Part shown: positions 44,078-64,000 of the stretch, one piece after another
Numbering within the stretch: the stretch's first letter is position 1
Layout: the number at the start of each line of letters is the position of its first letter
IMG/VR virus record: IMGVR_UViG_3300010883_028422
Location: 71,426 to 135,425 of that record
Source: a virus
Length of the DNA: 64,000 nucleotides
Direction: 5' to 3' (one strand)
Notes under the pieces: model-generated
What the model was told of the DNA's origin: nothing
Databases searched by the model: none
The model's input: the letters and a program-made list of their open reading frames with translations, nothing else
Program-made: the position numbers and the translations under genes

Positions 44078-44352
44078 AGGGGCGTATTATGCATCCAGCT
44101 ATTTTAAACAAAGAGTCTGAGAGAAAAAAGAAAAGAGAGAGTGAGCGCCTTCCATTGCGCCTTCCATTGCGCCTTCCATTGATGCCCGAATCACATGATG
44201 TTGAAAATCATAAAAAAAAGAAGAAGAAATCTGGTAATGATTACGTAATAAATGTAAATGATGAGTTTATAGTTGATTTAGATATCAATGAAGATAAGGG
44301 TAATGTTATCAGGGAAGAGATATGGAATATAGTGATAGAATACAGGCTTTAG
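44074..44352 (+). CDS. Hypothetical small protein containing (RLPL)3
   Basis: ORF overlapping the neighbouring genes; contains a 12-bp triplication. Confidence 0.55.
   Translation: MKGRIMHPAILNKESERKKKRESERLPLRLPLRLPLMPESHDVENHKKKKKKSGNDYVINVNDEFIVDLDINEDKGNVIREEIWNIVIEYRL
44146..44181 (+). repeat. (CGCCTTCCATTG)x3 tandem repeat
   Basis: Read directly; three exact copies. Confidence 0.95.
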
Positions 44353-45104
44353 CTAGTTTTTTATTAAAAAATAGCCTATATGATGAATACAACTATCTGT
44401 GCAAGTTTGCATCAGACGAGCCAACAGACGATGATATTGTTGCAGCAACACTTGTCAAAGAAGCGAGTGTTGATGGCGAAGAGGGCATGAAGGCAGTACA
44501 TCAAGTTATAATGAATAGGGCGGGGAATGCGTCTATGACTAAAAAAGCTGTTGTTTTAGAAAAGGGCGATGATGGTGTATACCAATTTTCATGTTGGAAC
44601 GGTATTGGCGAAAAAGCCAGAAAGGCCGTTGTGGATAAAGAGAGGGCCACTGTAAGCTATGTTGAAAACAAAAAAAAGGTTAAAAAGTTTGATATTGCAT
44701 TAAGAATAGTGGAAGGTAAAGAGGGGAATTCTGACGTTGGGGCCTCAACTCATTATTATACAGATGATGTGCCAGATTGGGCGACTGATCCGGAAGATTG
44801 TGTTTATAATACTCAGGGCGATATGACCACAAAAAGGGAGCTCTCTAAATTCCCCGAATCAGCAAAAATCAACATCAAAACTCCCGATGGCAGTGTTGTT
44901 AGCAAGAATATTCTTGGATACTGCAGGAAGGGCAATCCTTGCTGGAAGTTCATAGCAAATGTTGGCTCGCATACATTCGGAATTGATTACTCAAGTTCTA
45001 AATATTTGCGAGATGGGGTAGATCAGTGCTATAAAGATCGTCACAATGAAGCAGAGAGGGGGTACGGCATATACCGCTGGCCGAGATATAGAAATGAAGA
45101 TTAA
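44322..45104 (+). CDS. SleB/CwlJ-type cell-wall hydrolase (Hydrolase_2) with N-terminal leader
   Basis: AATLVKEA (catalytic Glu), AV.QVIMNR, YQFSCWN, GASTHYY, PDWA, VGSHTF. Confidence 0.85.
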   Translation: MEYSDRIQALASFLLKNSLYDEYNYLCKFASDEPTDDDIVAATLVKEASVDGEEGMKAVHQVIMNRAGNASMTKKAVVLEKGDDGVYQFSCWNGIGEKARKAVVDKERATVSYVENKKKVKKFDIALRIVEGKEGNSDVGASTHYYTDDVPDWATDPEDCVYNTQGDMTTKRELSKFPESAKINIKTPDGSVVSKNILGYCRKGNPCWKFIANVGSHTFGIDYSSSKYLRDGVDQCYKDRHNEAERGYGIYRWPRYRNED

Positions 45105-45282
45105 TATAGACAAAGATAATTACATTGATTTAAAAAAAGTAGATGGCGAAGATTTCGCAAGTCTGTCTATAAAGGTCAAAAAAGATGATAACAGTTATTT
45201 GCTAATATCGTTGTCCTTGGATGACGACTCTCTTGATAAAATGATATCTGAAATGGTGTCAATAAGAGCTAGGGTGAGCTAA
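45094..45282 (+). CDS. Hypothetical protein
   Basis: Likely start ATG 45094, overlapping the upstream stop region; fills the gap. Confidence 0.55.
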   Translation: MKINIDKDNYIDLKKVDGEDFASLSIKVKKDDNSYLLISLSLDDDSLDKMISEMVSIRARVS

Positions 45283-45283
45283 G

Positions 45284-46789
45284 ATGTCAAAGGATAGATA
45301 CAGCGATGACTACGCAATTGAGCTTTTTGGGGTGGATAAGGTTTATACCATAGATTCTCCCAACATAATACTTGATGCTCCTCCGGCTTCGGTGACGACT
45401 GCATTTTCATCGGCGGATGCTTCTCTTTTGGGCGGCATGTTCGGAGGGTCAATTCATGCCAATGGATCATGTTTATTTAATGATTATGTCGGAATAAACG
45501 GACAACTTCGGGTAGAGGGAAATTCAGTGTTGGCGTCTGAGTACATATATGTCGGAAACTCATCCAATAGTGTGTCCAACATCATATTTTATCCTGAAGG
45601 CGCCGAGGGCGGCACACCAGTTACAATAAATGGTGATCTTAGCGTAACCGGGTCTATAGCATCTGCCAGCATTGGCTCCACAGAGCTTGTTTGGCCCGGG
45701 ACGGTCGAAAGTGATTCTAATATGACTATGACTTCAGATGGTGGGTCTATAACGCTAGAGTCAAAGACTGATGACTTGATTTTAGATGCCGCCGGATACG
45801 TCTCTATTAGGAGTAACTATGTTGATGGCGCCGCTGAAGGCTCCAACAATTGTCGAGTAACTTTAAATGAAAGCGGCAGATTCCAGGTCACCACAAATGA
45901 TGTTGTGAACGGAACTTCTCGTTATAGGCAAAACGCTTCTGGCTATGCCATGTTTAATTTTGAATGTGATTACAATGATGATGATTATCCGGAGAAATAT
46001 GCAATGAATGTTTCAAATACGGATACAGCAGGCGGAAAGCATAGGCTTGTGCGATGGAGCTTGAGTGAAAATTCTGGTGCCAGTCCTGGAACCGAGCTCT
46101 CGACCAGTGCAGATGGTGCAGATTTTTTCTTAAGGTGTATAGATTTAATTGATAACGCCAACGACAGTGGTGGTGGTGTACAGTTCTGGATAGATGGCGA
46201 AGGCATGCTTGGAATATCATTTACCGGCCAGCATTGGGTTATTTATGAGGCTAATGGCGATGAAGACAGGCTTAGCAACTCTCTTTGCGGAATGATTGTT
46301 TCTTCTAGTGGGGAAATTTTTAATAAGCCAAAACTTTATGAGGCTCTGCCTATTGTAAAGATGTGCAATAGTAGCAAAGACCCCAAAGTTTATGGTGTAT
46401 TGACGTATACCAGCCAATCTGTTTATGATATGAGGCAGTTTAGGGAGTTTGACGGAATATATCATGAAGATAGCAGGGGAGAGCTTTCGCCGGAGATAGA
46501 TGTGTCCAGCTACTCTAGTGATAGTTTGTATTATAAATCACGCGTAAATTCGGTCGGAGAGGGCCAGGTTTTGGTTACAAATTATAATGGCGAAGTAACA
46601 AATGGCGACTATATAACTTCATCAGAAATTGTCGGCTATGGCATGAAGCAAGATGATGACATTCTACATAGTTACACGGTTGCGAAGTGTGTCGAAGAAA
46701 TTGACTGGGCCTCTGTAACTGATGTGGTTGAGTATGATGGTGTAGAGCATAAAATGTATCTATCAGCATGCACTTATCATTGTGGCTAA
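45284..46789 (+). CDS. Fibre/spike-like virion protein with C-terminal intramolecular chaperone (peptidase G2-like) domain
   Basis: beta-repeat-like N-half (INGDLSVTGSI); SFTGQH, then VNSVGEG.V.VTNYNG...NGDYITSS...GYGMKQDDD.LHSYTVAK...CTYHCG. Confidence 0.72.
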   Translation: MSKDRYSDDYAIELFGVDKVYTIDSPNIILDAPPASVTTAFSSADASLLGGMFGGSIHANGSCLFNDYVGINGQLRVEGNSVLASEYIYVGNSSNSVSNIIFYPEGAEGGTPVTINGDLSVTGSIASASIGSTELVWPGTVESDSNMTMTSDGGSITLESKTDDLILDAAGYVSIRSNYVDGAAEGSNNCRVTLNESGRFQVTTNDVVNGTSRYRQNASGYAMFNFECDYNDDDYPEKYAMNVSNTDTAGGKHRLVRWSLSENSGASPGTELSTSADGADFFLRCIDLIDNANDSGGGVQFWIDGEGMLGISFTGQHWVIYEANGDEDRLSNSLCGMIVSSSGEIFNKPKLYEALPIVKMCNSSKDPKVYGVLTYTSQSVYDMRQFREFDGIYHEDSRGELSPEIDVSSYSSDSLYYKSRVNSVGEGQVLVTNYNGEVTNGDYITSSEIVGYGMKQDDDILHSYTVAKCVEEIDWASVTDVVEYDGVEHKMYLSACTYHCG

Positions 46790-46814
46790 TATATCGTTAG
46801 CGTAATATGTCTAT

Positions 46815-47456
46815 ATGATAAAAAATTATAAAGAAATAGATTGCACAAAAACATGCAGAATGACCACTCAGCTTAGAGAAAGTAAATTTTGTACAAAAAC
46901 TGCAAGAGTCTACGACGACAAAATTGTTTTTGGTTGCGTTAAAATTTTAAAAAACGTTCCTGCAGAGATTACAAACCATTATTCATGTAATTATTGGAAT
47001 ATGGAGATGTATGATGCGTGCAACACGTGTAGCTTGTCTTGCATGAAGAATGATAATCTTAATTTAAAAAAGATTCAAGAGCAAAGAGACCGTTTGAAAA
47101 AACTTATGGAAAATGCGGCGCCAGCTATGGCTGGGTTCGGAATGACTTCCCAGAAGGCGGTGGACATATCAAAAAGCTTTAATCAAATTGAAAATGACAA
47201 AAGTGGCAAGGTGTATAGTGAGACTGCAATTAAGGCAGCAGAGTTTGCAAATCATATTTTAAACTCTGCATTAGACGGAAAGGCTGTGGACTTGGCATAC
47301 TTTCAAGAGTGCACTAATCATATGATAGAGAAAATTGGAAAAGAATCTGGCGAAAAAATAGACAAAATAGATTTTTCAAAAAGAAAGAAGATGGGCTTAA
47401 GCTCTCTTACAGATGATTTTCAAAAATTACTTAATAAGAATAAGAATACAAAATAG
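46815..47456 (+). CDS. Hypothetical protein with Cys-rich N-terminal domain
   Basis: Eight Cys in the first ~70 aa, including CxxxC and CxxCxxxC. Confidence 0.7.
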   Translation: MIKNYKEIDCTKTCRMTTQLRESKFCTKTARVYDDKIVFGCVKILKNVPAEITNHYSCNYWNMEMYDACNTCSLSCMKNDNLNLKKIQEQRDRLKKLMENAAPAMAGFGMTSQKAVDISKSFNQIENDKSGKVYSETAIKAAEFANHILNSALDGKAVDLAYFQECTNHMIEKIGKESGEKIDKIDFSKRKKMGLSSLTDDFQKLLNKNKNTK

Positions 47457-47749
47457 TGTAATATTGTTACAATAGAATAAGTTGTTAAAACAACGCCTAT
47501 TCCTATTTGGCTTATTTTTTTAGAAATATATTTAGATAATACATGTATTGTAAAAAAAGATATTGATAATTTTGCTATAACAAATGATACAAGCGAAACC
47601 TCCAGAATAGAGTCCATTATGGGATTCCACTCTTTTACATTCGAAAAAGAATACCACATCATGGTTGCCACTATGTCTAGAAGGATAAGTAGTGTTATTA
47701 CCTTAAGATGTTTTTTATCAAAATTTAGTTGGAAATGCTTCTTCCACAT
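47420..47749 (-). CDS. Small membrane protein (DUF5658-like)
   Basis: Three hydrophobic segments; LD..AT and E.NP.M motifs. Confidence 0.65.
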   Translation of the reverse strand: MWKKHFQLNFDKKHLKVITLLILLDIVATMMWYSFSNVKEWNPIMDSILEVSLVSFVIAKLSISFFTIHVLSKYISKKISQIGIGVVLTTYSIVTILHYFVFLFLLSNF

Positions 47750-47794
47750 GTTTAAAATTTATACTAAATTTTAAAAACAAAATATATTGTTTTA

Positions 47795-49402
47795 TTAGTT
47801 ACAGCCATATATTGCATATTCTATATCAATCATACTGCCATCTTCAGGTATATCTGATAAAAAGATTATAGAGTTTGTTGATGAGTCATATGACCATGTT
47901 GATGACACAGTCCCATCGACACTCACAACTATCGAGCCCTCTATTGGCTCATGACTTAAGGCGAATAGATTGCTAGCTATAGAGTCTCTGGCTAGCTCTT
48001 CCAGCTGGGTACCCCAATCGGTACTACACATCGATACAAACGTTCCACCGAGGTCCGAAACTACATCGTAATATCCGTCACCAAACGTTGCATATGTTCC
48101 TCCGCCAGAGCATCCGGACGGGTAGTCTCCCGCTACTGCATGCGCCGATACTAATGCCGAAGAGCCCTTCAGACTAAGGAGGTGTGCGGAATAATCTGAT
48201 GTTCCGAATGTTGAATATGATGATGAATGATCTGGTTCATCAGATATATATATTACAACAAATTTTGCACCAGTTCGCATAAAAGTTCCCGCAGTGTCCG
48301 CCGGTCCACCAACTGTTGTCGCCACATATGATTCATACAGCCCCCTCTCCATTGCGCTTCCGTGTGTGCCTATTGAGGTAATAATGCTATTTACTTCGGC
48401 AATCGGGTCTGCACTAGAATTTGTTATTATTGTTCCATCCACAAATTCATCGCCATTATCTGTCGTTATAAATCCAATTTTATAATCAACTCCTGATGCT
48501 GAAAATATGTTAATGAATGAGTCAAAGTTGTTTGCGAGGCTAGTTTGGTTTCTATACATTGATCCGGAATTATCTATTACGAATAATATGTCTGACTCTA
48601 ATAACCCATCTTGTTCGTGCGTATCTGTTATTATATCATAATAAGTTCCTTGGCCCTCTTGGGATGAATATGACATTGGATTTAGCGGATCATTAGATGA
48701 TATTTCTATATACGAATTATCATCAAGGATGTCTAGCGGCACATACCATACGTCCGCCTCTATGTTTGTTCCAGGTGATATGGTTATCGGCAGTATGGTA
48801 TTTATATAGCTTTGGTCATATAATTCAAAGTCAACAGGTACTGATGAGAAAAACTCTACATCATCAATTGTAAGATCAACATCTCCTAGGTTTGATATTT
48901 TGACTAAAATATAATTTTCACAACCTATATCTATTTCTCCAAAATCATGTTCCTCTGGAGTTACCTCTATAACTGGTGCGGAGCCTATTCCCATTATTGT
49001 AACTATGGATTCTGGCTCATCTTCATCATTTGAAAATATACTAATTGAATTTGGATTTGACTCATATGTTATTGGATCATATGTTATTGTTACTATAGAT
49101 TCTTCTTGAGGGTCCAATTCGCCATCTGATATGTTAGATATAGAATATACAGATATTTGATTATTTAAAATAATATTATTTAGATATAGGATATCATTTC
49201 CTATATTTTTTACTAAAATATCTAGTGACTTTACATCATTTGTTGCATTTAATATTCCAAAATCTAAATGCTCTGGAGAGACCTCTATTTCTGGAAATAA
49301 CTCAACACTTTGATCTTCTGATATATTTGATAAATTATAATCAGAGCAGCTAATTAGCGATAAAAATATAGTTGCAAAAATTAGTTCTTTTGACATAAGC
49401 AC
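47795..49402 (-). CDS. Lipoprotein with two ASH/Ig-like (choice-of-anchor D-type) repeats, a vWA domain and a C-terminal beta domain
   Basis: Signal peptide with lipobox LISC; P.IEV.PE.(L/H)DFG repeats; MIDAS DILFVIDNSGSM, ISDE.D. Confidence 0.82.
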   Translation of the reverse strand: MLMSKELIFATIFLSLISCSDYNLSNISEDQSVELFPEIEVSPEHLDFGILNATNDVKSLDILVKNIGNDILYLNNIILNNQISVYSISNISDGELDPQEESIVTITYDPITYESNPNSISIFSNDEDEPESIVTIMGIGSAPVIEVTPEEHDFGEIDIGCENYILVKISNLGDVDLTIDDVEFFSSVPVDFELYDQSYINTILPITISPGTNIEADVWYVPLDILDDNSYIEISSNDPLNPMSYSSQEGQGTYYDIITDTHEQDGLLESDILFVIDNSGSMYRNQTSLANNFDSFINIFSASGVDYKIGFITTDNGDEFVDGTIITNSSADPIAEVNSIITSIGTHGSAMERGLYESYVATTVGGPADTAGTFMRTGAKFVVIYISDEPDHSSSYSTFGTSDYSAHLLSLKGSSALVSAHAVAGDYPSGCSGGGTYATFGDGYYDVVSDLGGTFVSMCSTDWGTQLEELARDSIASNLFALSHEPIEGSIVVSVDGTVSSTWSYDSSTNSIIFLSDIPEDGSMIDIEYAIYGCN

Positions 49403-49407
49403 CCCTG

Positions 49408-50229
49408 TTATTCCTCTATAAAATTATATATATCATTTATTGATATTGCTAAAGCGCCATATGACGGAACTGTTGCAAATACCAGCCCTATCATTTCATT
49501 ATTTTTATTATAAACAGGACTTCCGCTATGCCCTGGAAGAATTATTCCTGATATAAATATAAAATCATCTCCATTGTGTGACAAGTTTTGCAAAGAAACT
49601 TGGTCTCTGCCAAGATGTCCGGAAACAAATGTTTCTAATATGGTTGGGAATATTCCGGTTGGCCCACCTATTATATATATTTTATCAAATTGATCAATTA
49701 TTACCTCATCACTTGCTAACGTAGTGGGCTTTATGTATCCAGTCATTCCAAGCAAGCATAAGTCGAGCCCACCGCTTGTTTTTAAAATGCTTGCTATTTT
49801 GGCATCTTTTAATGGTGTGCTTATCCTTGGCGAGCTAGAGTCTTCAAGTATTATAGCCATTAGTTGGCTCAGGAGTGCATCTTCACAAAAATGATTATTT
49901 GTTAATATATAAGATAAATTTTTATCCTTATCATATCCAATGCTGACTCCGGTTGCGCTACCAATAACCTCCCAGTTGGGCGAAGGTATGCCGCTTACTC
50001 TTGAATCAAGATTAATCATTGATAGCTTAACTACTGGCTTTAACATATCTCTTTTTTTACTAGCGGAGCTATGCTCTGGCTCCACTTTTAAAAGAGCGCT
50101 TATGTCGTTTTTTATAATATCAGAATTTTTATTAATTTTTGCCTGCATCAATAGTAATATTAATGGTATTGCTAAAGCTAAAGCAAATAATATTCTTTTT
50201 GTATAAACTTTGCATACTTTATTATTCAC
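49408..50229 (-). CDS. Membrane-anchored trypsin-like (S1) serine protease
   Basis: N-terminal TM helix; catalytic triad TNNHFC, DLCLL, GHSGSP. Confidence 0.9.
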   Translation of the reverse strand: MNNKVCKVYTKRILFALALAIPLILLLMQAKINKNSDIIKNDISALLKVEPEHSSASKKRDMLKPVVKLSMINLDSRVSGIPSPNWEVIGSATGVSIGYDKDKNLSYILTNNHFCEDALLSQLMAIILEDSSSPRISTPLKDAKIASILKTSGGLDLCLLGMTGYIKPTTLASDEVIIDQFDKIYIIGGPTGIFPTILETFVSGHLGRDQVSLQNLSHNGDDFIFISGIILPGHSGSPVYNKNNEMIGLVFATVPSYGALAISINDIYNFIEE

Positions 50230-50304
50230 ATTATAATGATATGTAATTAATATAATGGCATACAGAACTATTAATTTTTATTTAATTATCATAAGGAGAG
50301 CGCT

Positions 50305-50481: not shown

Positions 50482-50562
50482 TATAATATAATAATATAAA
50501 CTATATATGTTGGTAAAGATTATTTATTTAAAGTTGTTAGTTAATTACACAGGAGGTCCGAT

Positions 50563-51081: not shown

Positions 51082-51088
51082 GAACATA

Positions 51089-53875
51089 ATGAGTAAACTA
51101 AAAACAAATTCTATAGGCCCAGTAACTGAAAAAGATGTTACTGTAAAGGGACTTAGGAGTAGCACATCTCAGTCGTCAAGAGACGGCGTTATAAAGTATG
51201 AAGATGAAAAATTCCAATTTAGACAAGATGGCGAATGGATAACTTTTGATGATATACTTGGCTTAATACACGGACATCTTACTGGTGATGATTGGAATTG
51301 GAAGATGGAGGAGCATCTTTGGGTTCCGCCTAAGGATTTGACTTTAGATGTGATAGGCCTGGGGGAGGGCCTCAGTCTTGGTGATTTTGATGCAGATGGT
51401 GCAGATGGTGCAGATGCAGATGGTGACGGAGAAGATGACACTGCAATGATATTAACACTCGCTTCATCTATAATAAATAACTTAACGCTAACACTGCCTC
51501 TTCCCAGTAGAGATGAGACAAAGACTGAGGGGTGGGTTACGGAGTTGGGAGGATTAGGCCTGCCGCTTGTTACGACTTTATGTAGATATAAGCTTCCGGC
51601 CGGAACAACTGCTCAGTTTAAAAAGTCGGTAACGCATCCAGGCGCCGGCGCAGATGGTGAAGACCTAATGGTTGAGTTAGATTATTTTTACAGTATAGGT
51701 TATGAGTTAACAAAATTTTATGTGCATTATGCGGTTATTGGGGAGGGCATGTCCGCAATAGAGCCCGTAATTTATGACTCTGACTCTATAAGCAGCCGGT
51801 ACGCAGAGGTAAGCGTGTTTGGAGGGGAGTCTGTGACTCTTGAGCAGGATAAGCCGTCCTTTATTTCGCTCGAAGACTTAGAGGCGCTCATGGATGATAT
51901 GGACCCGGGACTTGGCGGTGAATCGGGAGATTTTACAGAAATTATAATGGAAAAGTTTGGTGTACAGAAGATTACACATAATTCCGCAAACTTTGTCACA
52001 TCATTTGGCTCCGTAATGGGCCTTGGAGGGTCTCCGCTGCCGGTTGAGATGGAGGACCTTCAAAATTTAATACCTGATAGCCTGCATAATACTCCAGAAA
52101 AAAGAGTTGCATCAGGTGTTCATGTCGCAGAGTATGTTTTAAGTGAACCATTAACTATGAATGGAAGGCAAACTTTTGGAATTTTTGCATCTGGACACGA
52201 AGTTGCCGCATCCGAGGAGTTTGATGGTGACGCATCTATGTCTGGACTTACCGCCATTCTTGGTGTAAAATTTATATTTGATAAAAAGCATTATAATGTT
52301 AGACACGGCGATGAGGAACTTCCACTCCCGCCTGGAGATGCCGGGTTTGGCATGCTAGGTTCCGAAGGAGAGCATATGGGTCATGCTTTAGATTCAGATG
52401 ATGATGGATGGTCTGATATATCAGAAATTATGGCAGGCACAGACCCGGCAGATTCTGCATCTCACCCCGCAATGATTATGGGGTCAACTCTTGATTCAGA
52501 TGGCGATGGTTGGACTGACGAGGCAGAGCTTGCAATGGGAACAGATCCAGAGGACTCTGCATCTCATCCGGTGGTTTTTGCGCACGCCGTAGAGTTTGCA
52601 TTTACCGCAACAGGCGTGTATGAACCAACGATACATCACTTTGCGCTAATTGGTGTACATTATTCGGGGCCAACAGTATCAGCTCCACTTTCAATGTGGA
52701 CGGACATCCGTGAGCTAGACGGGCTAGCCATAGCCATGGAGGTTCCTCCAGATAGCAGCTTTGTATTAGTCGCGCCATATTCAGATGAGTATTCCGCAGT
52801 AACATATGGCTCTGTTATAATGTCGCTATCTGCAACGTACGTAGGTTCGTCAGCAGGGTATGAGCCGGACGCACTTATGACATCATTTTACCCCGGGTAT
52901 GATGGTCCGGCACCTTTTGCGGCACTAGTGCCATATTCAGACGAGTATGAGGGATATCCGATAGTATCTACAGCTGCATTGCATGACCACCTGGAGTCCA
53001 CTGGCTCATTATCCTCAAGTACATTTTTGCTAAAGGCAGGTAAGTATGTGCCATTTTCGATTACAGAGCCATTCGTACATGGCACATACTCTATAGCGCC
53101 CGCTCCATCAGCACATGATCTTTCTTCCGGTCATTATTATATGTATGTATTTATTGATGGTGCTATAAAAGATACTTATTACGAACCAAGTGATGGAACA
53201 TATTACTATTATGAAATAACAACCCCAGTTGGTGACCTCAAACCATCTTCGGTCAAGGTGTCTGTTCCGGCTATATACGTATACTTTGTACCAGTAGGAG
53301 CGTCCGGACCCGCCATGCCTCCCGAAGACCTTGATGGTGACGGACTCTTTGACAAGGTTGAGGCTGTGATTGGGACAGACCCGTTGTCAGCAGATGTTGG
53401 CACGATTATGCTTGATGCGTCAGGAGATAAGCTTGGAGATGATTTGATTAAGCCACACACAATTGTGCATGGCAGTTTTGTTGACGGCAAGTGGGTTGTT
53501 AGCGGGGTCAGTGAATCTTACCTGATAGATTCTGATGGAGATATGCTTTCAGATGCAACAGAAGTTGCACTAGGTACGAATCCACAGAATCCAGACTCAG
53601 ACCAAGATGGGATTTCTGATGGGCATGAAATGCTTTTAAGAGATATGCTTGATGGCGAAATTGATGGTTTATTAGCAGAGGCCTTGGCCATCCTAGAGTC
53701 TAGCGCTTATGATGCAGAAGGTGCTGCTGGTAGTGGCGAAGATATATTTATAAGCTCAAGTGATAAGGCGGATATAATCATTGAAGCGTTCTCGGGAGAT
53801 GGCAAGCCGTTTGGCCCACAGGATAAGGCTAGGCTGCATGAGTTAATTGTTAATTTATTTAGTAATATAGAATAG
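51089..53875 (+). CDS. Large acidic virion fibre/decoration protein with DxDxDG Ca-binding (bacterial TSP3-like) repeats
   Basis: MSKLKTNSI N-terminal module; DSDDDGWSD..E...GTDP.DSASHP x2 (102-nt period, 52388 and 52490) and further DxDGD..D..E...GT(D/N)P units. Confidence 0.65.
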   Translation: MSKLKTNSIGPVTEKDVTVKGLRSSTSQSSRDGVIKYEDEKFQFRQDGEWITFDDILGLIHGHLTGDDWNWKMEEHLWVPPKDLTLDVIGLGEGLSLGDFDADGADGADADGDGEDDTAMILTLASSIINNLTLTLPLPSRDETKTEGWVTELGGLGLPLVTTLCRYKLPAGTTAQFKKSVTHPGAGADGEDLMVELDYFYSIGYELTKFYVHYAVIGEGMSAIEPVIYDSDSISSRYAEVSVFGGESVTLEQDKPSFISLEDLEALMDDMDPGLGGESGDFTEIIMEKFGVQKITHNSANFVTSFGSVMGLGGSPLPVEMEDLQNLIPDSLHNTPEKRVASGVHVAEYVLSEPLTMNGRQTFGIFASGHEVAASEEFDGDASMSGLTAILGVKFIFDKKHYNVRHGDEELPLPPGDAGFGMLGSEGEHMGHALDSDDDGWSDISEIMAGTDPADSASHPAMIMGSTLDSDGDGWTDEAELAMGTDPEDSASHPVVFAHAVEFAFTATGVYEPTIHHFALIGVHYSGPTVSAPLSMWTDIRELDGLAIAMEVPPDSSFVLVAPYSDEYSAVTYGSVIMSLSATYVGSSAGYEPDALMTSFYPGYDGPAPFAALVPYSDEYEGYPIVSTAALHDHLESTGSLSSSTFLLKAGKYVPFSITEPFVHGTYSIAPAPSAHDLSSGHYYMYVFIDGAIKDTYYEPSDGTYYYYEITTPVGDLKPSSVKVSVPAIYVYFVPVGASGPAMPPEDLDGDGLFDKVEAVIGTDPLSADVGTIMLDASGDKLGDDLIKPHTIVHGSFVDGKWVVSGVSESYLIDSDGDMLSDATEVALGTNPQNPDSDQDGISDGHEMLLRDMLDGEIDGLLAEALAILESSAYDAEGAAGSGEDIFISSSDKADIIIEAFSGDGKPFGPQDKARLHELIVNLFSNIE

Positions 53876-53892
53876 GAACGAGTGGTATAATA

Positions 53893-55149
53893 ATGAGCAA
53901 ATTAGAGACAAATTCAATCGGACCTTGGTCGAAACCAGATGTTGAGGTGTCTGGCCTAAGGTGCGCTAACACCAGCTCTCATAGAGATGGAGTTATAAGA
54001 TACAGAGATGATCAGTTCCAATTCAGAGAGGATGGGGTATGGAAAACCTTGTCCGATCCGGCAGCTGCAAGCGAAGAGCAACAATCTCCATTGCGCCTGG
54101 TTTATGCGCCAAATGCAGCATTTCCTGGGCCAAGACTTGGAAATATATTTAAAAGCTTTGCTGATTTGTATGCATTTTCTTCTAATTATTCGGGTGATAA
54201 AGAAATTTTGTTTGATAACAAATCTTTGCCAAATAAATTAGATATTAGTGTTATTGGTATTGACGGGTTATCATGGCCAGATGAGTCTAATTCATGTGTA
54301 ATTCCATCCGGAAATTATGATTTTAGACGAACATCACTAATGTCACTATCGGCTGATAATTCCGGTGATTGTGAACATGTGGTACCAATGTTCGGCTTTG
54401 CCTCTGACGGTCTGACCCAGCTTACGCAAGTTCCGGTTTTAGTTAAGAATGGTGCCAAAATCAAAAATCTTAGCTTTGCAAAGGGATTATTTTTCATTGG
54501 CGAGAAAGAAGGCTATGATACTCCTCCAATAACATATTCAAAGCTTTCTGATATATTTACACTAACACCAGATATGCTTAAATTTACTGGATATTTTTCA
54601 GTATGCCTTCACAAGTGTGCATTTATTGGCGGTGGCGGGTTTAAGATGACGGAGTTAGCTCCAGGAAGAACTAGTTCTTTAATATTTATTGATGGTCTCG
54701 GCATGACTCCGGACCCGTCTGCAGAGTGCGTAATGCTTCTTGTGAACGCTATGCATTCTGTATTTCTTGGAAATAATATTTTTTCTCTGGCAAATGGTGC
54801 ACATCTCAGTATTACGGACCCTATTGGTTCGAGTTGGTTTGGTGAAGATAATATAACTACAGAGCTAGACCCAATAGATCCTCTTCTGACACATAATAAT
54901 GCAGTTTTATTTCCTCCTCTTACTGGGTTTGTTAATACGACACAAACTAGTTTTAATTCGATAGGAGGCCTGGGGCTTCCTGGCGACATGATAGAGAGGG
55001 TGCCCTACTCACCCATAAGTGGTGTTTTTAATAGCGACCCAGACAATGTCGCTGAGGCTCTCGACAGGATGTCTCAAGCAATATATGAGATTAGGGGTAT
55101 TCTCATAGGCGCCGGAATAGGCGCTTTAGGCGATCAAAGAATCCCATAA
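53893..55149 (+). CDS. Virion fibre/decoration protein, paralogous N-terminus to 51089..53875
   Basis: MSKLETNSIGP...GLR.....RDGVI.Y.D..FQFR.DG.W.T shared with the upstream gene; C-terminal PYSP....PDNVAEALD. Confidence 0.6.
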   Translation: MSKLETNSIGPWSKPDVEVSGLRCANTSSHRDGVIRYRDDQFQFREDGVWKTLSDPAAASEEQQSPLRLVYAPNAAFPGPRLGNIFKSFADLYAFSSNYSGDKEILFDNKSLPNKLDISVIGIDGLSWPDESNSCVIPSGNYDFRRTSLMSLSADNSGDCEHVVPMFGFASDGLTQLTQVPVLVKNGAKIKNLSFAKGLFFIGEKEGYDTPPITYSKLSDIFTLTPDMLKFTGYFSVCLHKCAFIGGGGFKMTELAPGRTSSLIFIDGLGMTPDPSAECVMLLVNAMHSVFLGNNIFSLANGAHLSITDPIGSSWFGEDNITTELDPIDPLLTHNNAVLFPPLTGFVNTTQTSFNSIGGLGLPGDMIERVPYSPISGVFNSDPDNVAEALDRMSQAIYEIRGILIGAGIGALGDQRIP

Positions 55150-56556: not shown

Positions 56557-56946
56557 ATGTCTGGTAATAATGACGATAAGTTAGCGAAGGTTTCAAATTT
56601 TTTTAAACGAAATGGCCTTCCAAGTGATGCATCTTTAATAAATTATTTTATTAAAAAGTTTGGAAGTAATACGCCTAATCTTTCAGATATATATCAAAAT
56701 ATTCCAAAAGAAGAGCGCAGTGATTTTATTAAGGCTGTAGATACTGCTTCTGATGATATTGACAGTATAGACAATGACGACAGTGATGAACATGATTATG
56801 AGTTAGAACAAATTTACGAACAAATGAGGAATATGCATAGAGAGAATCCTAATTTGGTTATGGTGCAGAAAGATGGGTTCGAGGTCACAATAGATGATGT
56901 TTTAGAGACATTGAGCATAGGCCCTGGGGGCTCTGAACAATTATGA
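56557..56946 (+). CDS. Hypothetical acidic protein with shared N-terminal leader
   Basis: GGAGG RBS; DKLAKVSNFFKRNGL..DASLINYFIKKFGS. Confidence 0.75.
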   Translation: MSGNNDDKLAKVSNFFKRNGLPSDASLINYFIKKFGSNTPNLSDIYQNIPKEERSDFIKAVDTASDDIDSIDNDDSDEHDYELEQIYEQMRNMHRENPNLVMVQKDGFEVTIDDVLETLSIGPGGSEQL

Positions 56947-57425
56947 TTACAAAAGTAGCCGGGGCGGCGTATGAGTCAACCGGGATAGTTGATATCAGAA
57001 ATAAGCTTCCAATAAGAACAACCGCAAGAGTTAGGGACGCATACAGAAAGATGAAACCAGACGAGCCGGCCAGGTGGTATGACCAAGAGACGGGCCAGGT
57101 CATAGATGGCATAAGGCGCGGCCTTCCAAATTATTATGCATCTCAAATAATTGAAACAGAGTTTGCGAGCAGTAACGAGGGCGTGCCTGAGGATGGACAC
57201 TTTCCGCTTGATGATGGGAGTACTGGCGAAATACGCTTTATGGTTAGTGCTTCTGGCGATTATTATGATGTATTTGTAAGTTCGATTAAAACCGGCTCTG
57301 TTGACATAATATCATTTCAAAGAGGTTACTTTAAAAAGGGTCCAGGCTGGAAGAAGAAGTCTGGAGTTATACCTAAGGAGCCAGTATGGTATAATAAAGG
57401 CGGCGCCCCCAGTTGGGTTAGGTAG
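56943..57425 (+). CDS. Hypothetical protein
   Basis: ATGA-coupled to the upstream gene; begins MITKVAG. Confidence 0.7.
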   Translation: MITKVAGAAYESTGIVDIRNKLPIRTTARVRDAYRKMKPDEPARWYDQETGQVIDGIRRGLPNYYASQIIETEFASSNEGVPEDGHFPLDDGSTGEIRFMVSASGDYYDVFVSSIKTGSVDIISFQRGYFKKGPGWKKKSGVIPKEPVWYNKGGAPSWVR

Positions 57426-59587: not shown

Positions 59588-59600
59588 TATAGGTATTTAT

Positions 59601-59855: not shown

Positions 59856-59863
59856 GACTAATT

Positions 59864-60613
59864 ATGCCGATATATAATGATAAAGAGGTTATCCAAATTA
59901 GAATACCAAAGACTGCAAGCACATCGATGTCAACGGCGCTTGGGGGCGAAGAAGGGGTCGTGGGCTACAGGGCTCATGGCAGCAATAGGATCCATAGCAC
60001 TATTGCAGAAATACAGACAGAGTTGGACCGTGATAAGTTTGATACATATTTTAAATTTTCATTCGTAAGAAATCCTTTTGACTGGTTTGTTTCAAATAAT
60101 ATTTATTTTAAAGATGGAAATTATAAAGCCTCAAGAGGCATATCTATTGAGGAGTGGATTTTTGGATTAGGCCGAGTAGCGGAGTCGAGAGATGGTGACT
60201 ATTCAAAGTATAATCCATATATAAATCATAAAATACATAATTCATTCATTCACAACGGCAATAGTAGCGTTGTCTCATGTGGCCATGCGAGATGTTCGGC
60301 CATAGGGGGCGCCAGGCAGTGCAATTGCCTTGGGGCGAGCCAAAGAAGCTGGGTTCTTTACAAGGATAAAGTCGCGGTTGACTTTGTGGGAAAATTAGAA
60401 AGCTTAAGTGAAGACTGGGCCTTTGTCTCTGACAGGGTTGGACACGGAGTTCCGAGTGTTCTTCCGCATGATAATAAAAGAGAACACAGTAAAAGCTCAT
60501 ACCTATCAAACTTCAAGGACGAACGCGTCGTTGAGGTTGTATATAATCTTTTCAAAGAGGATTGTGAGCTCTTTGGGTATGATGCAAATGACTACCCAGG
60601 GTTTAAGTCTTAG
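59864..60613 (+). CDS. Sulfotransferase family 2
   Basis: IRIPKTASTS, FSFVRNPFDWFVS, DFVGKLESL.ED, N.REH...Y, D.ELFGY. Confidence 0.88.
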   Translation: MPIYNDKEVIQIRIPKTASTSMSTALGGEEGVVGYRAHGSNRIHSTIAEIQTELDRDKFDTYFKFSFVRNPFDWFVSNNIYFKDGNYKASRGISIEEWIFGLGRVAESRDGDYSKYNPYINHKIHNSFIHNGNSSVVSCGHARCSAIGGARQCNCLGASQRSWVLYKDKVAVDFVGKLESLSEDWAFVSDRVGHGVPSVLPHDNKREHSKSSYLSNFKDERVVEVVYNLFKEDCELFGYDANDYPGFKS

Positions 60614-61073
60614 TAAATCTATCAGCAACACTGCTTGCCCAGCTATCTGGCTTTATTGCGCAATCATAGCCCATAGAAAGAACAATAGACTCAGCTTCTT
60701 TTTTATACCTTGCGCTCATGCTCTTTAGTATATCGCTTCCAATGTCGAGGTGAATTGTCAGCCCCCCATGAACAAACTCTTCTATTTCCATCGCAACCTC
60801 TATGCTTTTATATGCCTCATATAAAAGCCTAACCCTTGTGGTTGGAAATTTTGATTTAGGAACTCGCTCTTTTGTATAAAATATCCGCCCGCCTCTGCCT
60901 TCTTTGTATAGGCATACGCAAGTTACAACACTAACCTTATTTTTTATAATTTGAGAATCAGCGCCTATGAATACATTATATCCATTCTCTTGTAATGATA
61001 TAAGGTCTTCTTTGAATTCTTTAAACGAAAATTCATGTTGTTCATAGTTAAAAATTTTATTGGTTTTAAACAT
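60603..61073 (-). CDS. RNase H-like (DUF458-type) protein
   Basis: VFIGADSQ, RLLYEAYKS, IHLDI, IKPDSWASS.VAD. Confidence 0.8.
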   Translation of the reverse strand: MFKTNKIFNYEQHEFSFKEFKEDLISLQENGYNVFIGADSQIIKNKVSVVTCVCLYKEGRGGRIFYTKERVPKSKFPTTRVRLLYEAYKSIEVAMEIEEFVHGGLTIHLDIGSDILKSMSARYKKEAESIVLSMGYDCAIKPDSWASSVADRFTKT

Positions 61074-61214
61074 TGATTAAGATTTCACATTGGTATAATA
61101 ATAGTGTACGATATATTGTTGAATAATTAATATCAAAATTATATTTTTATTGCTATTATTTATATATAATATACTATACTATATATTTTTGAACTTCAAT
61201 GGTAATTTGTCAAA

Positions 61215-61784
61215 ATGAAATCAGTAGATAATAAATTAAATTTTTTATTGAGTTATTTAAATAATATTGGCCTTAATAAGGAGTCGGAATATATAAAGAA
61301 AATATTAAAGATAGCTTCTTTTGACTACCCTATTGAGGAGATAGAGGTTGAATCAAAAAAAGAATTATTCTCATACTTAGAAGATAATCCGGGAGAGTTT
61401 ATATTTTTAGACAACCCTATTGGTACATTTAAATCTTTTGGAGATGATAAGAAGAAGTTGCCGTTTCATTACGGTGAGTTTCCAGGTTTAATAAATCCAT
61501 CTGATGATATGGGCTGGGACATCATCATTGTTCCAAGCTCAAGCTGTGGAGTTATAGATGGTGAATTTGGCGAGGTGGCTGCCGGCCACGACCTAGTTCC
61601 GGTTGGGTATGTTCCGGTAAATAACAACGAGGACGACTGGATGAATAATGCAGCAAAACCTCCACCCATTGGTAACGATAAAATAATATTAGCTCCAAAT
61701 GGAAAATATTTAGACTCAGATATTAAGACGATAAGAGATTTTCTCTCTGATCTATGGCAGTTTGATAAGATTAAATTGTTCTAG
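61215..61784 (+). CDS. Family I inorganic pyrophosphatase-like protein with shared N-terminal leader
   Basis: PFHYGEFPG...SDDMGWDIIIV (compare NYG.IP.T..DGDPLDV) and GNDKIILA; the acidic signature is partly degenerate. Confidence 0.55.
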   Translation: MKSVDNKLNFLLSYLNNIGLNKESEYIKKILKIASFDYPIEEIEVESKKELFSYLEDNPGEFIFLDNPIGTFKSFGDDKKKLPFHYGEFPGLINPSDDMGWDIIIVPSSSCGVIDGEFGEVAAGHDLVPVGYVPVNNNEDDWMNNAAKPPPIGNDKIILAPNGKYLDSDIKTIRDFLSDLWQFDKIKLF

Positions 61785-61822
61785 TAATATATGGTAATAT
61801 ATTGCTTAATATTGATTATAAA

Positions 61823-64000
61823 ATGGACACATCTGATATGGATAATTTAAATATAGATATACTTAATGATATAGACAAATTTGCAAACTCCTTATTAAAA
61901 ATAGGGCATGTATATCAGGGTTTATCTCTAAACAGCCTTTTCGTTAAGGCTTCTGATGATATTTTTGGGGATATGTCATTAAAAGAAGAGCTTGACTCTC
62001 AGGGTCGCCTTATGAGCCATGGTGATATATTGCGATTATTCTATAAAGTAACTACAGATGCGGATGGAAATATAAGTCAAACCCCTAAGGATTTTGAGGC
62101 ATCATTGCCAAAAAATGATGAAAAGAAATTATCTAAATTAATAAACATATATGAAAACTTAATGCTTTGGTATATGGGAGAGAAGAAAGAGGGGGCTACG
62201 GAAAATCAAAAGGCGTTAATTGGTGAGGCACTAAGAAGGACAACCTTCTCGATGAGAGATCTTAATAACGTCTTGGTTAGAAAAGAAAGATCTGATTTAA
62301 TTGGCAAGTTAAGAGATACGATTAAAGATACTCAGCAAAGGGCTGTTAGCGATATATCAAGGTCAGATTCGGATTCGGATTCGGATTCGAATGAGAAGGT
62401 CAAAAGCTCTGTTGGTATGTCCGGAAGATCAAGTTATATAAAATATTTATCTGACTATAGAAATATGAAGTCGAGTGGGACACCACCCCAGACGCTTAAA
62501 AGATGGGCTGCTAGAAATTTAGATTTTTCTGGAAAATCTGGGTATGGAAAGATACCATTTGACGAGTCTGTTCGCGCTATCAACCCACAATCAAGGTGGA
62601 CTCTCGAGCAGTTATCAAGAGATAGGAACAAGATGATCCGAGCTGACGCAAAAAGAACTATGGCGAAGATGAAGAGCACAAAGGGTAGTTTGGATGGCAA
62701 AAGCATATCTTTATATGATGCTCAAAAAATAGAAGCTGAAAAGATACTTCGTGTGCTAAACAAATACGAGGATTCACCAGATGCATTGTATAAATATCAT
62801 AATGTTCAAACAGAAAGAATAAGAGGTTATTTAAAGAAAACTGATCCTAACGATGAAAATGAAAGAATGAGAAGGTTATTTGATAGTCTTTTAAATTATG
62901 AAAAAATATTCGAAGGCCCCGGGCCAAATACTGAATCAAAAGTTAATAATGCACAAGCATCTTTACAATATCTTGAGGCACATATAGAGGTTGATGATGA
63001 TTCTGGAAGAATTATAATCCCAAGGTTAACGACAAAGCAGGTAAAGGACATACGAATTACTGAAAGTTCTGGGGATGATATAAATGAATATATTAAAAAA
63101 ATACTTTCTGGCCAGGCGCGGGAAGCATCCTCCGTATCAAGGGGCAAGGTTAGGGAGATATGCGATGATATCGCTAAGTTTAGGCAAGCCAAAAGCTATA
63201 TATATAAGGCGGGAAATAGGCTTTCTTTGATAAAAGAAGCTATATCAAACAACTCTGTAGCAAAAGAGAATCTTGATAACGTAAAGAGCCTTGCGAAAGA
63301 TTTAGAAATAAGAATAAAAAATGTAACAGAGGGTGCTGAATCTGGAAGCAGGGTAAAGATAAGAAGCGTTGACTTGCTTTTTGATGAAGAGTTAAATGCA
63401 CATAATTCATATCCACAGCCAATGGCTATGGTTGATAATTATCTTGGCGTAAAAGATCTAAAGTGGTCCCCTGCCTTGCAAAGTATAAGAAGAAATATGA
63501 AAAAGCAAGATGACGGAACTAGAGCGAGACTCTCTAGAAACCCAGATCACTACAGGGACCGGCCTGCTAGTAAAAATTTATGGTGGGAGGAGTATGCTGC
63601 AAAAATAGCTCACGCAAAGTTGTATAGAAATGAATATACATATAATTCAGCAGCAGTACTTCTGGTTATTTGTTCTGCGCCGCCAGTGTGGATTGGCAAT
63701 AACGACACTCAATTACAGGGTATGAAGGGTGATGAGGTATTGATTCAAAAGCATATATACGATAAAACACGCGGGTCCGGAACACAATACAGGGTTGGGC
63801 AAACAGCTGGTGACCTGCCAAATGTTTGGCCTCAATTTAGAGGCTCCGATGATGATCCGGATATACCAAAAGAAATTCTCGCAGAAGGTTACGCTGCATG
63901 CATAGAGGCATTAGCATCCCTGGTTGGTTACTCTGGCGCGATACCTGGCGATCCAAGCGCCATGCAGCGTGTTTTCGCAGAAGAGTCGATGAAGATAGAG
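61823..64000 (+). CDS. Large hypothetical protein (>725 aa, 3'-truncated, not in the ORF track) with shared N-terminal leader
   Basis: I translated the frame from ATG 61823 to the window end without finding a stop. It begins MDTSDMDNLNIDILNDIDKFANSLLKIGHVYQGLSLNSLFVKASDD. Confidence 0.85.
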   Translation, partial: MDTSDMDNLNIDILNDIDKFANSLLKIGHVYQGLSLNSLFVKASDDIFGDMSLKEELDSQGRLMSHGDILRLFYKVTTDADGNISQTPKDFEASLPKNDEKKLSKLINIYENLMLWYMGEKKEGATENQKALIGEALRRTTFSMRDLNNVLVRKERSDLIGKLRDTIKDTQQRAVSDISRSDSDSDSDSNEKVKSSVGMSGRSSYIKYLSDYRNMKSSGTPPQTLKRWAARNLDFSGKSGYGKIPFDESVRAINPQSRWTLEQLSRDRNKMIRADAKRTMAKMKSTKGSLDGKSISLYDAQKIEAEKILRVLNKYEDSPDALYKYHNVQTERIRGYLKKTDPNDENERMRRLFDSLLNYEKIFEGPGPNTESKVNNAQASLQYLEAHIEVDDDSGRIIIPRLTTKQVKDIRITESSGDDINEYIKKILSGQAREASSVSRGKVREICDDIAKFRQAKSYIYKAGNRLSLIKEAISNNSVAKENLDNVKSLAKDLEIRIKNVTEGAESGSRVKIRSVDLLFDEELNAHNSYPQPMAMVDNYLGVKDLKWSPALQSIRRNMKKQDDGTRARLSRNPDHYRDRPASKNLWWEEYAAKIAHAKLYRNEYTYNSAAVLLVICSAPPVWIGNNDTQLQGMKGDEVLIQKHIYDKTRGSGTQYRVGQTAGDLPNVWPQFRGSDDDPDIPKEILAEGYAACIEALASLVGYSGAIPGDPSAMQRVFAEESMKIE
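62366..62389 (+). repeat. (GATTCG)x4 encoding an Asp-Ser repeat
   Basis: Read directly. Confidence 0.92.

What the first reader, a model, noticed from the sequence alone, without database searches (positions are those of the whole stretch)
44322..64000. Shared ~35-aa N-terminal leader ending K-x-A-S on four unrelated proteins: candidate capsid-loading/maturation signal
Seen: 44322 DRIQALASFLLKNSLYDEYNYLCKFAS; 56557 DKLAKVSNFFKRNGLPSDASLINYFIKKFGS; 61215 NKLNFLLSYLNNIGLNKESEYIKKILKIAS; 61823 DKFANSLLKIGHVYQGLSLNSLFVKAS. All share an amphipathic helix, a G/S turn, a second helix and a terminal K-x-(A/G)-S or KAS. After that the proteins diverge completely (lysin, acidic protein, PPase-like, giant unknown). 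56943 starts MITKVAG, possibly a minimal version. Established: T4-type and jumbo phages target internal head proteins with N-terminal propeptides removed by the prohead protease. Inference: this is this phage's packaging/cleavage tag, defining an injected cargo set.
Basis: partly seen in the sequence, partly recalled or inferred. Interest (0 to 1): 0.8.

Follow-up and report, generated by a model that had tools for sequence, protein, structure and literature searches.

The report
Portable hairpin tag on phage proteins
Four unrelated proteins of this uncultured marine giant phage begin with the same small two-helix module, and scaffold-like head-assembly proteins of related phages end with it, so it most likely docks ready-made enzymes into the assembling virus head, although neither loading nor cutting has been shown.

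Summary
The four leaders alone fail a leave-one-out test. However, all four match a large, unannotated family of about 30-residue helix-turn-helix modules (core L-I-K-L-A-N-x-L-D-x-x-G-L-x-K-E-A-D-x-L-D-x-I-I-K-K-x-A) found in uncultured phages.

Profiles built from their orthologues give P = 1.3e-6, 1.6e-6 and 1.4e-4. The best of 38 control proteins reaches 0.022.

The phage belongs to a large clade whose capsid protein is 49% identical to that of Bacillus phage G. A 94%-complete relative carries at least 25 tagged proteins. Cargoes include three kinds of cell-wall hydrolase.

The tag is mostly N-terminal (63 of 82 instances) but also occurs internally, at the C-terminus and in tandem. It is therefore a docking module, not just a signal peptide.

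New here: a conserved acidic protein between the protease and capsid genes ends in two such hairpins, and other head-module proteins end in one. This resembles the coat-binding hairpin of the P22 scaffolding protein. Capsid loading is therefore the leading reading (about 50%). Cleavage at K-x-A-S is untested.

Earlier notes of this scan describe similar hairpin tags on other huge-phage DNA. I could not confirm that they are the same family.

The parts
44322..44414 (+). Hairpin tag (residues 1-31, ending K-F-A-S) of the 260-aa SleB-type cell-wall hydrolase
   Evidence: Translation. An alignment of seven orthologue N-termini against the module profile gave Prob 90.6%, P = 1.3e-6 over 29 columns. 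An HMM of that family retrieves canonical module proteins as its top non-self hits.
44322..45104 (+). Cargo 1: cell-wall hydrolase (Pfam Hydrolase_2, residues 52-160) with a Cys-rich C-terminal part
   Evidence: Pfam E = 2.1e-8. PHROG endolysin. The homologue in relative G001 has a short tag ending I-M-A-S, then LysM, then the hydrolase.
56557..56667 (+). Hairpin tag (residues 1-37, ending K-K-F-G-S) of a 129-aa acidic protein
   Evidence: Translation. As a single sequence P = 4.7e-5, rank 2 of 97. The orthologue alignment gave Prob 90.1%, P = 1.6e-6.
56557..56946 (+). Cargo 2: small acidic protein (pI 4.05 without the tag), no known family
61215..61319 (+). Hairpin tag (residues 1-35, ending L-K-I-A-S) of the 189-aa pyrophosphatase-like protein
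   Evidence: E = 1.1e-4 against a seed with no window sequence. E = 3.4e-9 against the iterated family HMM. AlphaFold2 predicts helices 4-17 and 24-34 at low pLDDT, not packed on the core.
61215..61784 (+). Cargo 3: family-I inorganic-pyrophosphatase-like fold
   Evidence: All top Foldseek hits are inorganic pyrophosphatases (prob 0.95-1.0, E about 1e-3, TM about 0.4). Orthologues in L002 and L003 carry other N-termini.
61838..61954 (+). Hairpin tag of the large protein (Met at 61838 to V-K-A-S)
   Evidence: Orthologues P0069 and P0073 start at the equivalent Met. As a single sequence P = 6.6e-3, rank 3 of 97. The three-sequence alignment gave Prob 52%, P = 1.4e-4 over 30 columns.
61838..64000 (+). 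Cargo 4: basic protein of about 880 aa, no known family, cut off by the contig end
   Evidence: No Pfam family, and only a sub-threshold PHROG match (phrog_2284, E 0.006). Only 6 relatives among 1.84e9 representative proteins. The full-length orthologue P0069 is 880 aa.
56943..57425 (+). Possible minimal tag (M-I-T-K-V-A-G) on a 160-aa protein; uncertain
   Evidence: The G001 homologue has ...V-I-K-K-E-A-G at the same place and sits next to three tagged genes. There is no statistical support.

Best explanation
Shown: the four leaders are copies of one portable module of about 30-35 residues. The module is a first amphipathic helix, a G/S turn, and a second helix ending I-I-K-K-x-A/S (here K-x-A/G-S). 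It belongs to a large, unannotated family confined, as far as seen, to uncultured phages. In this clade of huge marine phages, relatives of Bacillus phage G, it is fused to dozens of unrelated proteins.

Inferred: the module is a docking element for the assembling head. A conserved acidic, scaffold-like protein encoded between the head protease and the capsid gene ends in two such hairpins, and other head-module proteins end in one. Cargo proteins carrying a copy would therefore co-assemble with the scaffold or bind the inner procapsid surface. This is how the C-terminal helix-turn-helix of the P22 scaffolding protein binds coat protein. The cargo would stay in the head and be delivered with the DNA. 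Candidate cargoes are cell-wall hydrolases, a pyrophosphatase-like enzyme, phosphatases and small basic proteins.

Speculative: the head protease then removes the tag next to the K-x-A/S tail.
For: Family and membership:
- Family defined.
- The four window leaders rank 1 to 4 of 97.
- Orthologue-profile P values are 1.3e-6, 1.6e-6 and 1.4e-4. The minimum P among 38 control alignments was 0.022.

Fold:
- AlphaFold2 predicts helix 2-14, a turn, then helix 18-39, with pLDDT 96-98.
- In the 61215 protein the tag is not packed against the core.

Portability:
- The cargoes are unrelated.
- Orthologues exist without the tag.
- Of 82 distinct instances, 63 are N-terminal, 12 internal and 7 C-terminal.

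Scale:
- The syntenic relative G001 (94% complete) has at least 25 tagged genes on one strand.
- 416 IMG/VR contigs carry the same capsid protein type.

Link to the head:
- Across 80 capsid-gene loci, every module hit lies 1.2-6.2 kb upstream of the capsid gene on the same strand.
- The acidic protein after the protease gene was found by BLAST in 33 ORFs among the 80 loci. It ends in two hairpins (profile P = 3.8e-5 and 0.011). One version has four (best P = 1e-7). Its pI is 4.3-4.5.
- The 145-aa and roughly 1000-aa proteins just before the decoration and capsid genes end in a canonical module in five loci. This genome's own 1002-aa orthologue has a diverged copy at that spot.

Cargo:
- Three peptidoglycan-hydrolase families are tagged: Hydrolase_2, SLT and VanY-like. 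This is the kind of enzyme a virion carries.

Precedents:
- P22 gp8 residues 271-300 form a helix-loop-helix on the inner procapsid surface (PMC9965877).
- The T4 capsid targeting sequence (CTS) loads proteins into the head (PMC3012670).
- The 30 N-terminal residues of P1 DarB do the same (PMC9024508).
Against: - There is no virion proteome, no cultured member with the module, and no binding or cleavage data. INPHARED has no convincing match and phage G has none.
- The window's own contig lacks the protease and scaffold region, so the head link rests on relatives and on one diverged copy in the 1002-aa protein (single-sequence P only 0.035).
- 'Scaffold' is inferred from gene position, acidity and helices alone. 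No Pfam or PHROG family names the protein and the Atlas search gave nothing.
- The tagged genes of the window lie among replication and nucleotide-metabolism genes, not structural ones. I found no shared promoter.
- The K-x-A/S tail is only moderately conserved (A or S in 56% of instances). Many internal and C-terminal copies are not flanked by it.
- The capsid protein's N-terminal extension is not significantly module-like (P = 0.09).
Confidence: 0.5

Rival explanations
1. The hairpin is a general self-associating or hub-binding module. It gathers accessory proteins at some other phage structure: the cell envelope, the TubZ filament, a replication compartment or the tail. The head-module proteins are merely some of many carriers.
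For: Tandem, internal and C-terminal copies fit an association module. The tagged genes of the window lie outside the structural module. The genome encodes a TubZ-like tubulin. Many cargoes act on the cell wall, which could mean a shared site of action at lysis rather than in the virion.
Against: In the capsid-gene loci the module is found only in genes between the protease and the capsid gene. A protein conserved across the clade at the classic scaffold position ends with it. The module is not hydrophobic and carries no known wall-binding motif.
Confidence: 0.25
2. One reading: a strictly N-terminal T4-type propeptide that both targets the protein and is cut off by the prohead protease right after K-x-A. 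The four window proteins would then be the injected cargo set.
For: 77% of instances start at residues 1-12. The tail K-x-A/S is followed by a variable, often acidic linker before the conserved cargo. [KR]-hydrophobic-A-S is enriched in N-termini. The capsid protein has a 42-residue N-terminal extension, absent from phage G, with an invariant I-V-K-Y-A-[SA]. C-terminal copies in head proteins are preceded by [KR]-x-A. The relative has a head-maturation protease domain.
Against: Cleavage is untested. The enrichment test was made after seeing the motif. Internal and tandem copies and several C-terminal copies lack the flanking motif. The module is three times longer than the T4 CTS and folds on its own. 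The cargo set in the window cannot be complete because the contig is a fragment.
Confidence: 0.2
3. A nucleic-acid-binding helix-extension-helix (SAP/HeH/Rho-N-like) module that tethers proteins to phage DNA.
For: The size and helix-turn-helix layout, with a conserved G-L turn, recall SAP/HeH motifs (my own recollection, not tested). Several small cargoes have Lys-rich tails and zinc ribbons.
Against: A Pfam scan of eight module proteins at E <= 5 gave no SAP, HeH or Rho_N match. The canonical module is acidic (several D and E in the core). The Lys-rich stretches lie in the cargo, not in the module. Foldseek gave no meaningful match.
Confidence: 0.04
4. Chance resemblance of amphipathic N-terminal helices.
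For: Leave-one-out HMMs from the four leaders alone fail. Two of the four are weak as single sequences (P = 0.0066 and 0.016).
Against: The four rank 1 to 4 of 97. Orthologue-profile P values are 1e-4 to 1e-6, against a control minimum of 0.022. Intermediate sequences link the variants, for example P0067 and the G001 VanY-like protein.
Confidence: 0.01

Closest known systems
[quoted passage not shown]
   Same: A helical hairpin of about 30 residues. It sits at the C-terminus of an acidic protein encoded next to the capsid gene. In P22, fusing cargo to it is enough to load capsids, which is the principle proposed here.
   Different: I did not test for sequence similarity to gp8, and none is claimed. 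Binding to the capsid protein is not shown here. Here the hairpin occurs naturally on dozens of cargo proteins, mostly at their N-termini, and in tandem. P22 scaffold leaves intact, without proteolysis.
Capsid targeting sequence (CTS) of phage T4 internal proteins IPI-III and Alt, removed by the gp21 prohead protease (Mullaney and Black 1996, as cited in PMC3012670 and PMC9024508)
   Same: One shared N-terminal tag on unrelated, fast-changing proteins that are loaded through the scaffolding core and injected.
   Different: The T4 CTS is about 10 residues and ends in L/I-x-E. This module is a folded hairpin of 30-35 residues, also found at C-termini, internally and in tandem. It ends in K-x-A/S, and no cleavage is shown.
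N-terminal packaging signal of phage P1 DarB (first 30 residues sufficient; PMC9024508)
   Same: An N-terminal stretch of about 30 residues that may need to fold and that directs a large enzyme into the head.
   Different: The P1 signal is known on one protein. No sequence likeness was tested. This phage lineage is different.
N-terminal propeptides of phiKZ/SPN3US head and ejection proteins cut by the prohead protease (PMC10052503)
   Same: A giant phage in which many head proteins carry removable N-terminal parts.
   Different: Those propeptides are 20-254 residues long, are not one shared module, and have a cleavage motif of their own. This phage has a phage G-type capsid protein.
'Portable helical-hairpin tags of huge phages' noted earlier in this scan on other genomes (e1-5815564, e1-5815576, e1-5357388, e1-5816380)
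   Same: As described: helix-turn-helix tags of 24-43 residues at the start, end or middle of many unrelated proteins of uncultured huge phages, with head loading as the unproven guess.
   Different: Their sequences are not shown to me. A sequence look-up with a canonical module protein found no earlier window, so I cannot say it is the same family. The link to scaffold-like head proteins is not mentioned in those summaries.

Membership tests
Unnamed hairpin-module family defined here (core L-I-K-L-A-N-x-L-D-x-x-G-L-x-K-E-A-D-x-L-D-x-I-I-K-K-x-A) | Significant full-length profile match in one register | tested here: met
   Window 61215: E = 1.1e-4 against an independent seed and 3.4e-9 against the iterated HMM. 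The 44322, 56557 and 61838 families gave hhalign P = 1.3e-6, 1.6e-6 and 1.4e-4. The control minimum was 0.022.
Unnamed hairpin-module family defined here | Two helices joined by a short G/S turn, folding independently of the cargo | tested here: met
   AlphaFold2 on a canonical member: helix 2-14 and helix 18-39, pLDDT 96-98. The window 61215 protein has helices 4-17 and 24-34, but at low pLDDT from a shallow alignment.
T4-type capsid targeting sequence / propeptide | Short (about 10 aa) peptide found only at the N-terminus | tested here: not met
   The module is 30-35 aa. 19 of 82 instances are internal or C-terminal, and up to four copies occur per protein.
T4-type capsid targeting sequence / propeptide | Ends in the cleavage motif of the phage's own prohead protease and is removed | not testable with these tools
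   The K-x-A/S tail is present and the relative has a protease domain. The protease's specificity is unknown and no proteomic data exist.
T4-type capsid targeting sequence / propeptide | Sufficient to load a foreign protein into the head | not testable with these tools
   Needs an experiment.
Scaffolding-protein coat-binding helix-turn-helix (P22 gp8 type) | A helix-loop-helix of about 30 residues at the C-terminus of a scaffold protein encoded beside the capsid gene | tested here: inconclusive
   A conserved acidic protein between the protease and capsid genes ends in two hairpins that match the module (P = 3.8e-5 and 0.011; best 1e-7). That it is the scaffold is inferred from position and composition only.
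Scaffolding-protein coat-binding helix-turn-helix (P22 gp8 type) | Binds the inner surface or N-arm of the capsid protein | not testable with these tools
   No multimer prediction or binding assay was available.
SAP / HeH / Rho-N DNA-binding motifs | Match to the Pfam models | tested here: not met
   No such hit at E <= 5 on eight module proteins. HMMER's filters may hide very weak matches.

The most novel reading that the evidence does not exclude
A whole clade of uncultured huge marine phages (416 or more IMG/VR contigs with this capsid protein) uses a copy of its scaffold's own docking hairpin as a universal address label. Placed at either end of a protein or in tandem, the label loads dozens of unrelated, fast-changing enzymes into the procapsid for delivery with the DNA. 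These include cell-wall hydrolases, phosphatases, a pyrophosphatase-like protein and DNA-binding mini-proteins. It would be a natural counterpart of the engineered P22 scaffold-fusion cargo system, on a much larger scale than the T4 internal proteins.
Probability: 0.4. Interest if true: 0.75.

Novelty: new variant of a known kind. Interest (0 to 1): 0.62.

Why it matters
If the tag loads proteins into the head, it gives a sequence-only way to read the injected proteome of a very large, uncultured group of ocean phages. The tagged set would be the proteins that act in the first seconds of infection: wall-opening enzymes, possible anti-defence factors and metabolic enzymes.

It would also show that a scaffold's coat-binding hairpin can be copied onto cargo in nature. 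So far this principle has only been exploited by engineers using P22.

The module is short, folds on its own and works at either end of a protein. It would therefore be a practical handle for packaging proteins into capsid shells.

The idea is directly testable by co-expressing a few genes, without needing the unknown host.

Tried and rejected
- Leave-one-out HMMs from the four leaders alone had no power.
- A DNA search of the region against cultured phages found no match. A tblastn search with a canonical module found only chance-level Vibrio helicase hits.
- Close-relative scans in IMG/VR for the 44322, 56557 and 61802 proteins found none.
- No Pfam or PHROG model covers the module.
- One weak 'T7 capsid assembly protein' Pfam hit among 75 tagged proteins was not among the ten members rescanned and was dropped.
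- Foldseek on the hairpin model returned only generic helical matches, E > 1.
- An Atlas search on the scaffold-like protein returned nothing useful.
- The phage G genome has no module match.
- The phage G capsid gene has no N-terminal extension, so it gives no processing site to transfer.
- The capsid protein's N-terminal extension against the module profile was not significant (P = 0.09).
- A shared promoter upstream of 20 tagged genes of the relative was not apparent by eye.
- One search was a mistyped reference and returned an error.

Full report
WHAT THE DNA IS. The window is the last 64 kb of a single 135,425-bp virus contig with no terminal repeat, so the genome is a fragment. It encodes giant fibre and baseplate proteins, a glycosyltransferase island, a TubZ-like tubulin, UvsW, PrkA/YeaH/SpoVR, ribonucleotide reductase, PhoH and topoisomerase IA. 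Its major capsid protein lies outside the window at genome 13849-14916. That protein matches the solved capsid protein gp27 of Bacillus phage G (6wkk, E = 2.7e-89, 49% identity). A 316,664-bp IMG/VR contig (G001, 94% complete) is syntenic over almost the whole length. 416 IMG/VR contigs encode the same capsid type, and the best 80 are at least 72% identical. This is a large clade of uncultured huge phages.

THE OBSERVATION. The four ORFs and their N-terminal peptides are as described, and the cargo parts are unrelated. Taken alone, the four leaders are too short and too diverged. In leave-one-out HMMs the left-out leader ranked 13th to 145th.

Related loci changed this. Neighbours of the 61215 homologue in three IMG/VR contigs carry obvious copies of a stronger version of the motif. 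A seed made only of those outside copies found the 61215 leader at E = 1.1e-4. A nine-segment alignment (A1) retrieved 54 metagenome proteins at E <= 1e-3 from 5.8e9 sequences, although only 8000 candidates were scored. The consensus is M-I-K-E-L-I-K-L-A-N-H-L-D-S-K-G-L-T-K-E-A-D-Y-L-D-S-I-I-K-K-x-A. No Pfam or PHROG model covers it.

ARE ALL FOUR MEMBERS? I built a family profile that excludes this genome and the near-identical homologues of the 61215 protein. I then compared it by hhalign with the first 70 residues of each of the 97 genes of the genome. Sixth was the 1002-aa protein just upstream of the capsid gene. The chance that a named set of four fills the top four places is 1 in 3.46 million.

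Orthologues from the large databases sharpen the weak ones. The lysin family includes intermediates such as ...R-I-Q-A-L-A-E-F-L-E-A-H-G..., which is close to the tag of the G001 VanY-like protein. It gives P = 1.3e-6. The acidic-protein family gives 1.6e-6 and the large-protein family 1.4e-4. All alignments span the whole module in one register. As a control, 38 other proteins of the genome were aligned with their G001 orthologues, and the minimum P was 0.022, as expected by chance. The fourth gene probably starts at the Met at 61838 and is about 880 aa long.

ANATOMY.
- AlphaFold2 on a canonical 112-aa member, using a 75-row alignment, gives helix 2-14, a three-residue turn and helix 18-39, at pLDDT 96-98.
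- In the 61215 protein the two leader helices (4-17 and 24-34) have low confidence and are not packed on the well-modelled core. That core resembles family-I inorganic pyrophosphatases.
- Among 82 distinct instances, 63 are at the very N-terminus, 12 are internal and 7 are C-terminal. One protein has three copies and another has four.
- Orthologues of the 61215 cargo in two contigs carry different N-termini.
- The module is therefore a self-contained, swappable domain.
- Its tail is I-I-K-K-x-A/S, with A or S in 56% of instances.

WHO CARRIES IT. G001 has 17 matches to the first profile and about 25 with better profiles and by eye. All are on one strand, clustered at 113-115, 144-162 and 195-207 kb, with two in the head region. 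Of 75 tagged proteins scanned, most have no Pfam family. The rest include Hydrolase_2 (4), SLT (2), LysM, zinc ribbons, EF-hand/dockerin-like loops and protein phosphatases. A VanY-like peptidase is also tagged. Three unrelated classes of cell-wall hydrolase thus carry the tag.

LINK TO THE HEAD. The G001 head module reads: terminase, portal, three unknown proteins, a 1108-aa protein with a head-maturation-protease domain, a 167-aa acidic protein, 230-aa and 143-aa proteins, an 812-aa protein, a decoration protein, and the capsid protein.

In the 80 capsid-gene loci (871 kb, 4187 ORFs), every module hit lies 1.2-6.2 kb upstream of the capsid gene on the same strand. Two gene families account for the hits.

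(a) The acidic protein right after the protease gene. BLAST with its C-terminal 85 residues found it in 33 ORFs among the 80 loci. Its pI is 4.3-4.5, it has a very acidic middle, and it ends in two tandem hairpins. The orthologue alignment against the module profile gives P = 3.8e-5 for the last hairpin and 0.011 for the first, each over all 30 columns. A 349-aa version has four hairpins (best P = 1e-7).

(b) The 145-aa and roughly 1000-aa proteins just before the decoration and capsid genes. These end in a canonical module in L102, L105, L107, L115 and L119. This genome's own 1002-aa orthologue has a diverged copy at the homologous position.

Gene position, acidity and a C-terminal helix-turn-helix are what one expects of a scaffolding protein. 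In P22, residues 271-300 of gp8 form exactly such a hairpin bound to the inner procapsid surface (PMC9965877). This is circumstantial. No family model names these proteins.

MECHANISM PROPOSED. Shown: there is a shared, portable, self-folding hairpin, and it is present on head-module proteins. Inferred: the hairpin binds the procapsid interior or the scaffold core. Cargo carrying it would be co-assembled, retained and delivered with the DNA, as with the T4 CTS (PMC3012670) and the first 30 residues of P1 DarB (PMC9024508).

Speculative: the head protease removes the tag. In favour of removal:
- A variable, often acidic linker follows the tail.
- [KR]-hydrophobic-A-S is enriched in the first 60 residues (3 against 0.6 expected here, 13 against 6 in G001). 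That test was made after seeing the motif.
- The capsid protein has a 42-residue N-terminal extension that phage G lacks, with an invariant I-V-K-Y-A-[SA] in 43 distinct sequences.
- C-terminal copies in head proteins are preceded by [KR]-x-A.

Against removal:
- The whole extension is conserved, not only that motif.
- The extension is not module-like (P = 0.09).
- Many internal copies lack the flank.
- No processing data exist.

LIMITS. The window's contig lacks its own protease and scaffold region. No cultured phage has the module. The tagged genes of the window sit among replication and nucleotide genes. A non-capsid docking role therefore remains a serious rival.

EARLIER NOTES OF THIS SCAN. 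Several notes describe portable helical-hairpin tags in other huge phages, with head loading as an unproven guess. A sequence look-up found no earlier window like this module, so identity with those tags is open. One note on a phage G relative reports a hydrophobic-x-K-hydrophobic-A core on head proteins, which resembles the tail seen here. I treated these notes as leads only.

VERDICT. This is a new variant of a known principle (capsid-targeting and scaffold-docking peptides). It is undescribed in Pfam and PHROGs and in the papers I searched, and it is testable with a handful of genes.

Noticed in passing
window 61215-61784: Behind the tag, the cargo is a divergent family-I inorganic-pyrophosphatase-like fold. 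All top Foldseek hits are pyrophosphatases, and D-D-M-G-W-D-I-I-I and N-D-K-I-I-L-A motifs are conserved. It gets no Pfam hit.
   Followed up: partly
genome 13849-14916 (outside the window; L037): The major capsid protein is 49% identical to Bacillus phage G gp27 (6wkk). It carries a conserved 42-residue N-terminal extension that the phage G gene lacks. 416 IMG/VR contigs encode relatives.
   Followed up: partly
G001 161007-161670, 156259-156624, 53382-53681, 157159-157818; L069 5199-5828: A second short tag, [RK]-K-I-A-[AS]-[DK]-R-N-Y, starts several small proteins. In one protein it follows a hairpin module directly. A scaffold-like protein starts M-R-K-I-A-A-D. Head-module proteins of G001 start M-R-K-V-A-Y, M-R-K-I-S-Y and M-I-K-K-V-S-Y.
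   Followed up: no
window 51089-53875 and 53893-55149: Two adjacent paralogues share the first 40 or so residues (M-S-K-L-[KE]-T-N-S-I-G-P...). The larger one has bacterial TSP3 calcium-binding repeats. They may be fibre or surface proteins lying outside the tail module.
   Followed up: no
window 47795-50229 (minus strand): The only sizeable minus-strand genes of this part of the window are a 535-aa protein with a lipoprotein-like signal and HYDIN/VesB-type Ig domains, and a 273-aa protein with a weak PHROG protease match. Both are conserved in G001.
   Followed up: no
window 44074-44352: A 92-aa ORF overlapping the start of the tagged lysin gene contains R-L-P-L repeats. It is probably not a gene, which would leave a 244-bp gap upstream of the lysin gene.
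   Followed up: no
G001 39995-43321 (L042 6995-10321, minus strand): The head-maturation-protease domain (PHROG 18299, residues about 98-240) is embedded in a 1108-aa protein. That is far larger than usual prohead proteases.
   Followed up: no
L003 1166-1772: Tiny tagged proteins (97-100 aa) consist of the hairpin followed by a Lys-rich stretch and an EF-hand/dockerin-like loop plus a zinc ribbon, or a PHROG 727 domain. This is the composition expected of DNA-associated internal head proteins.
   Followed up: no
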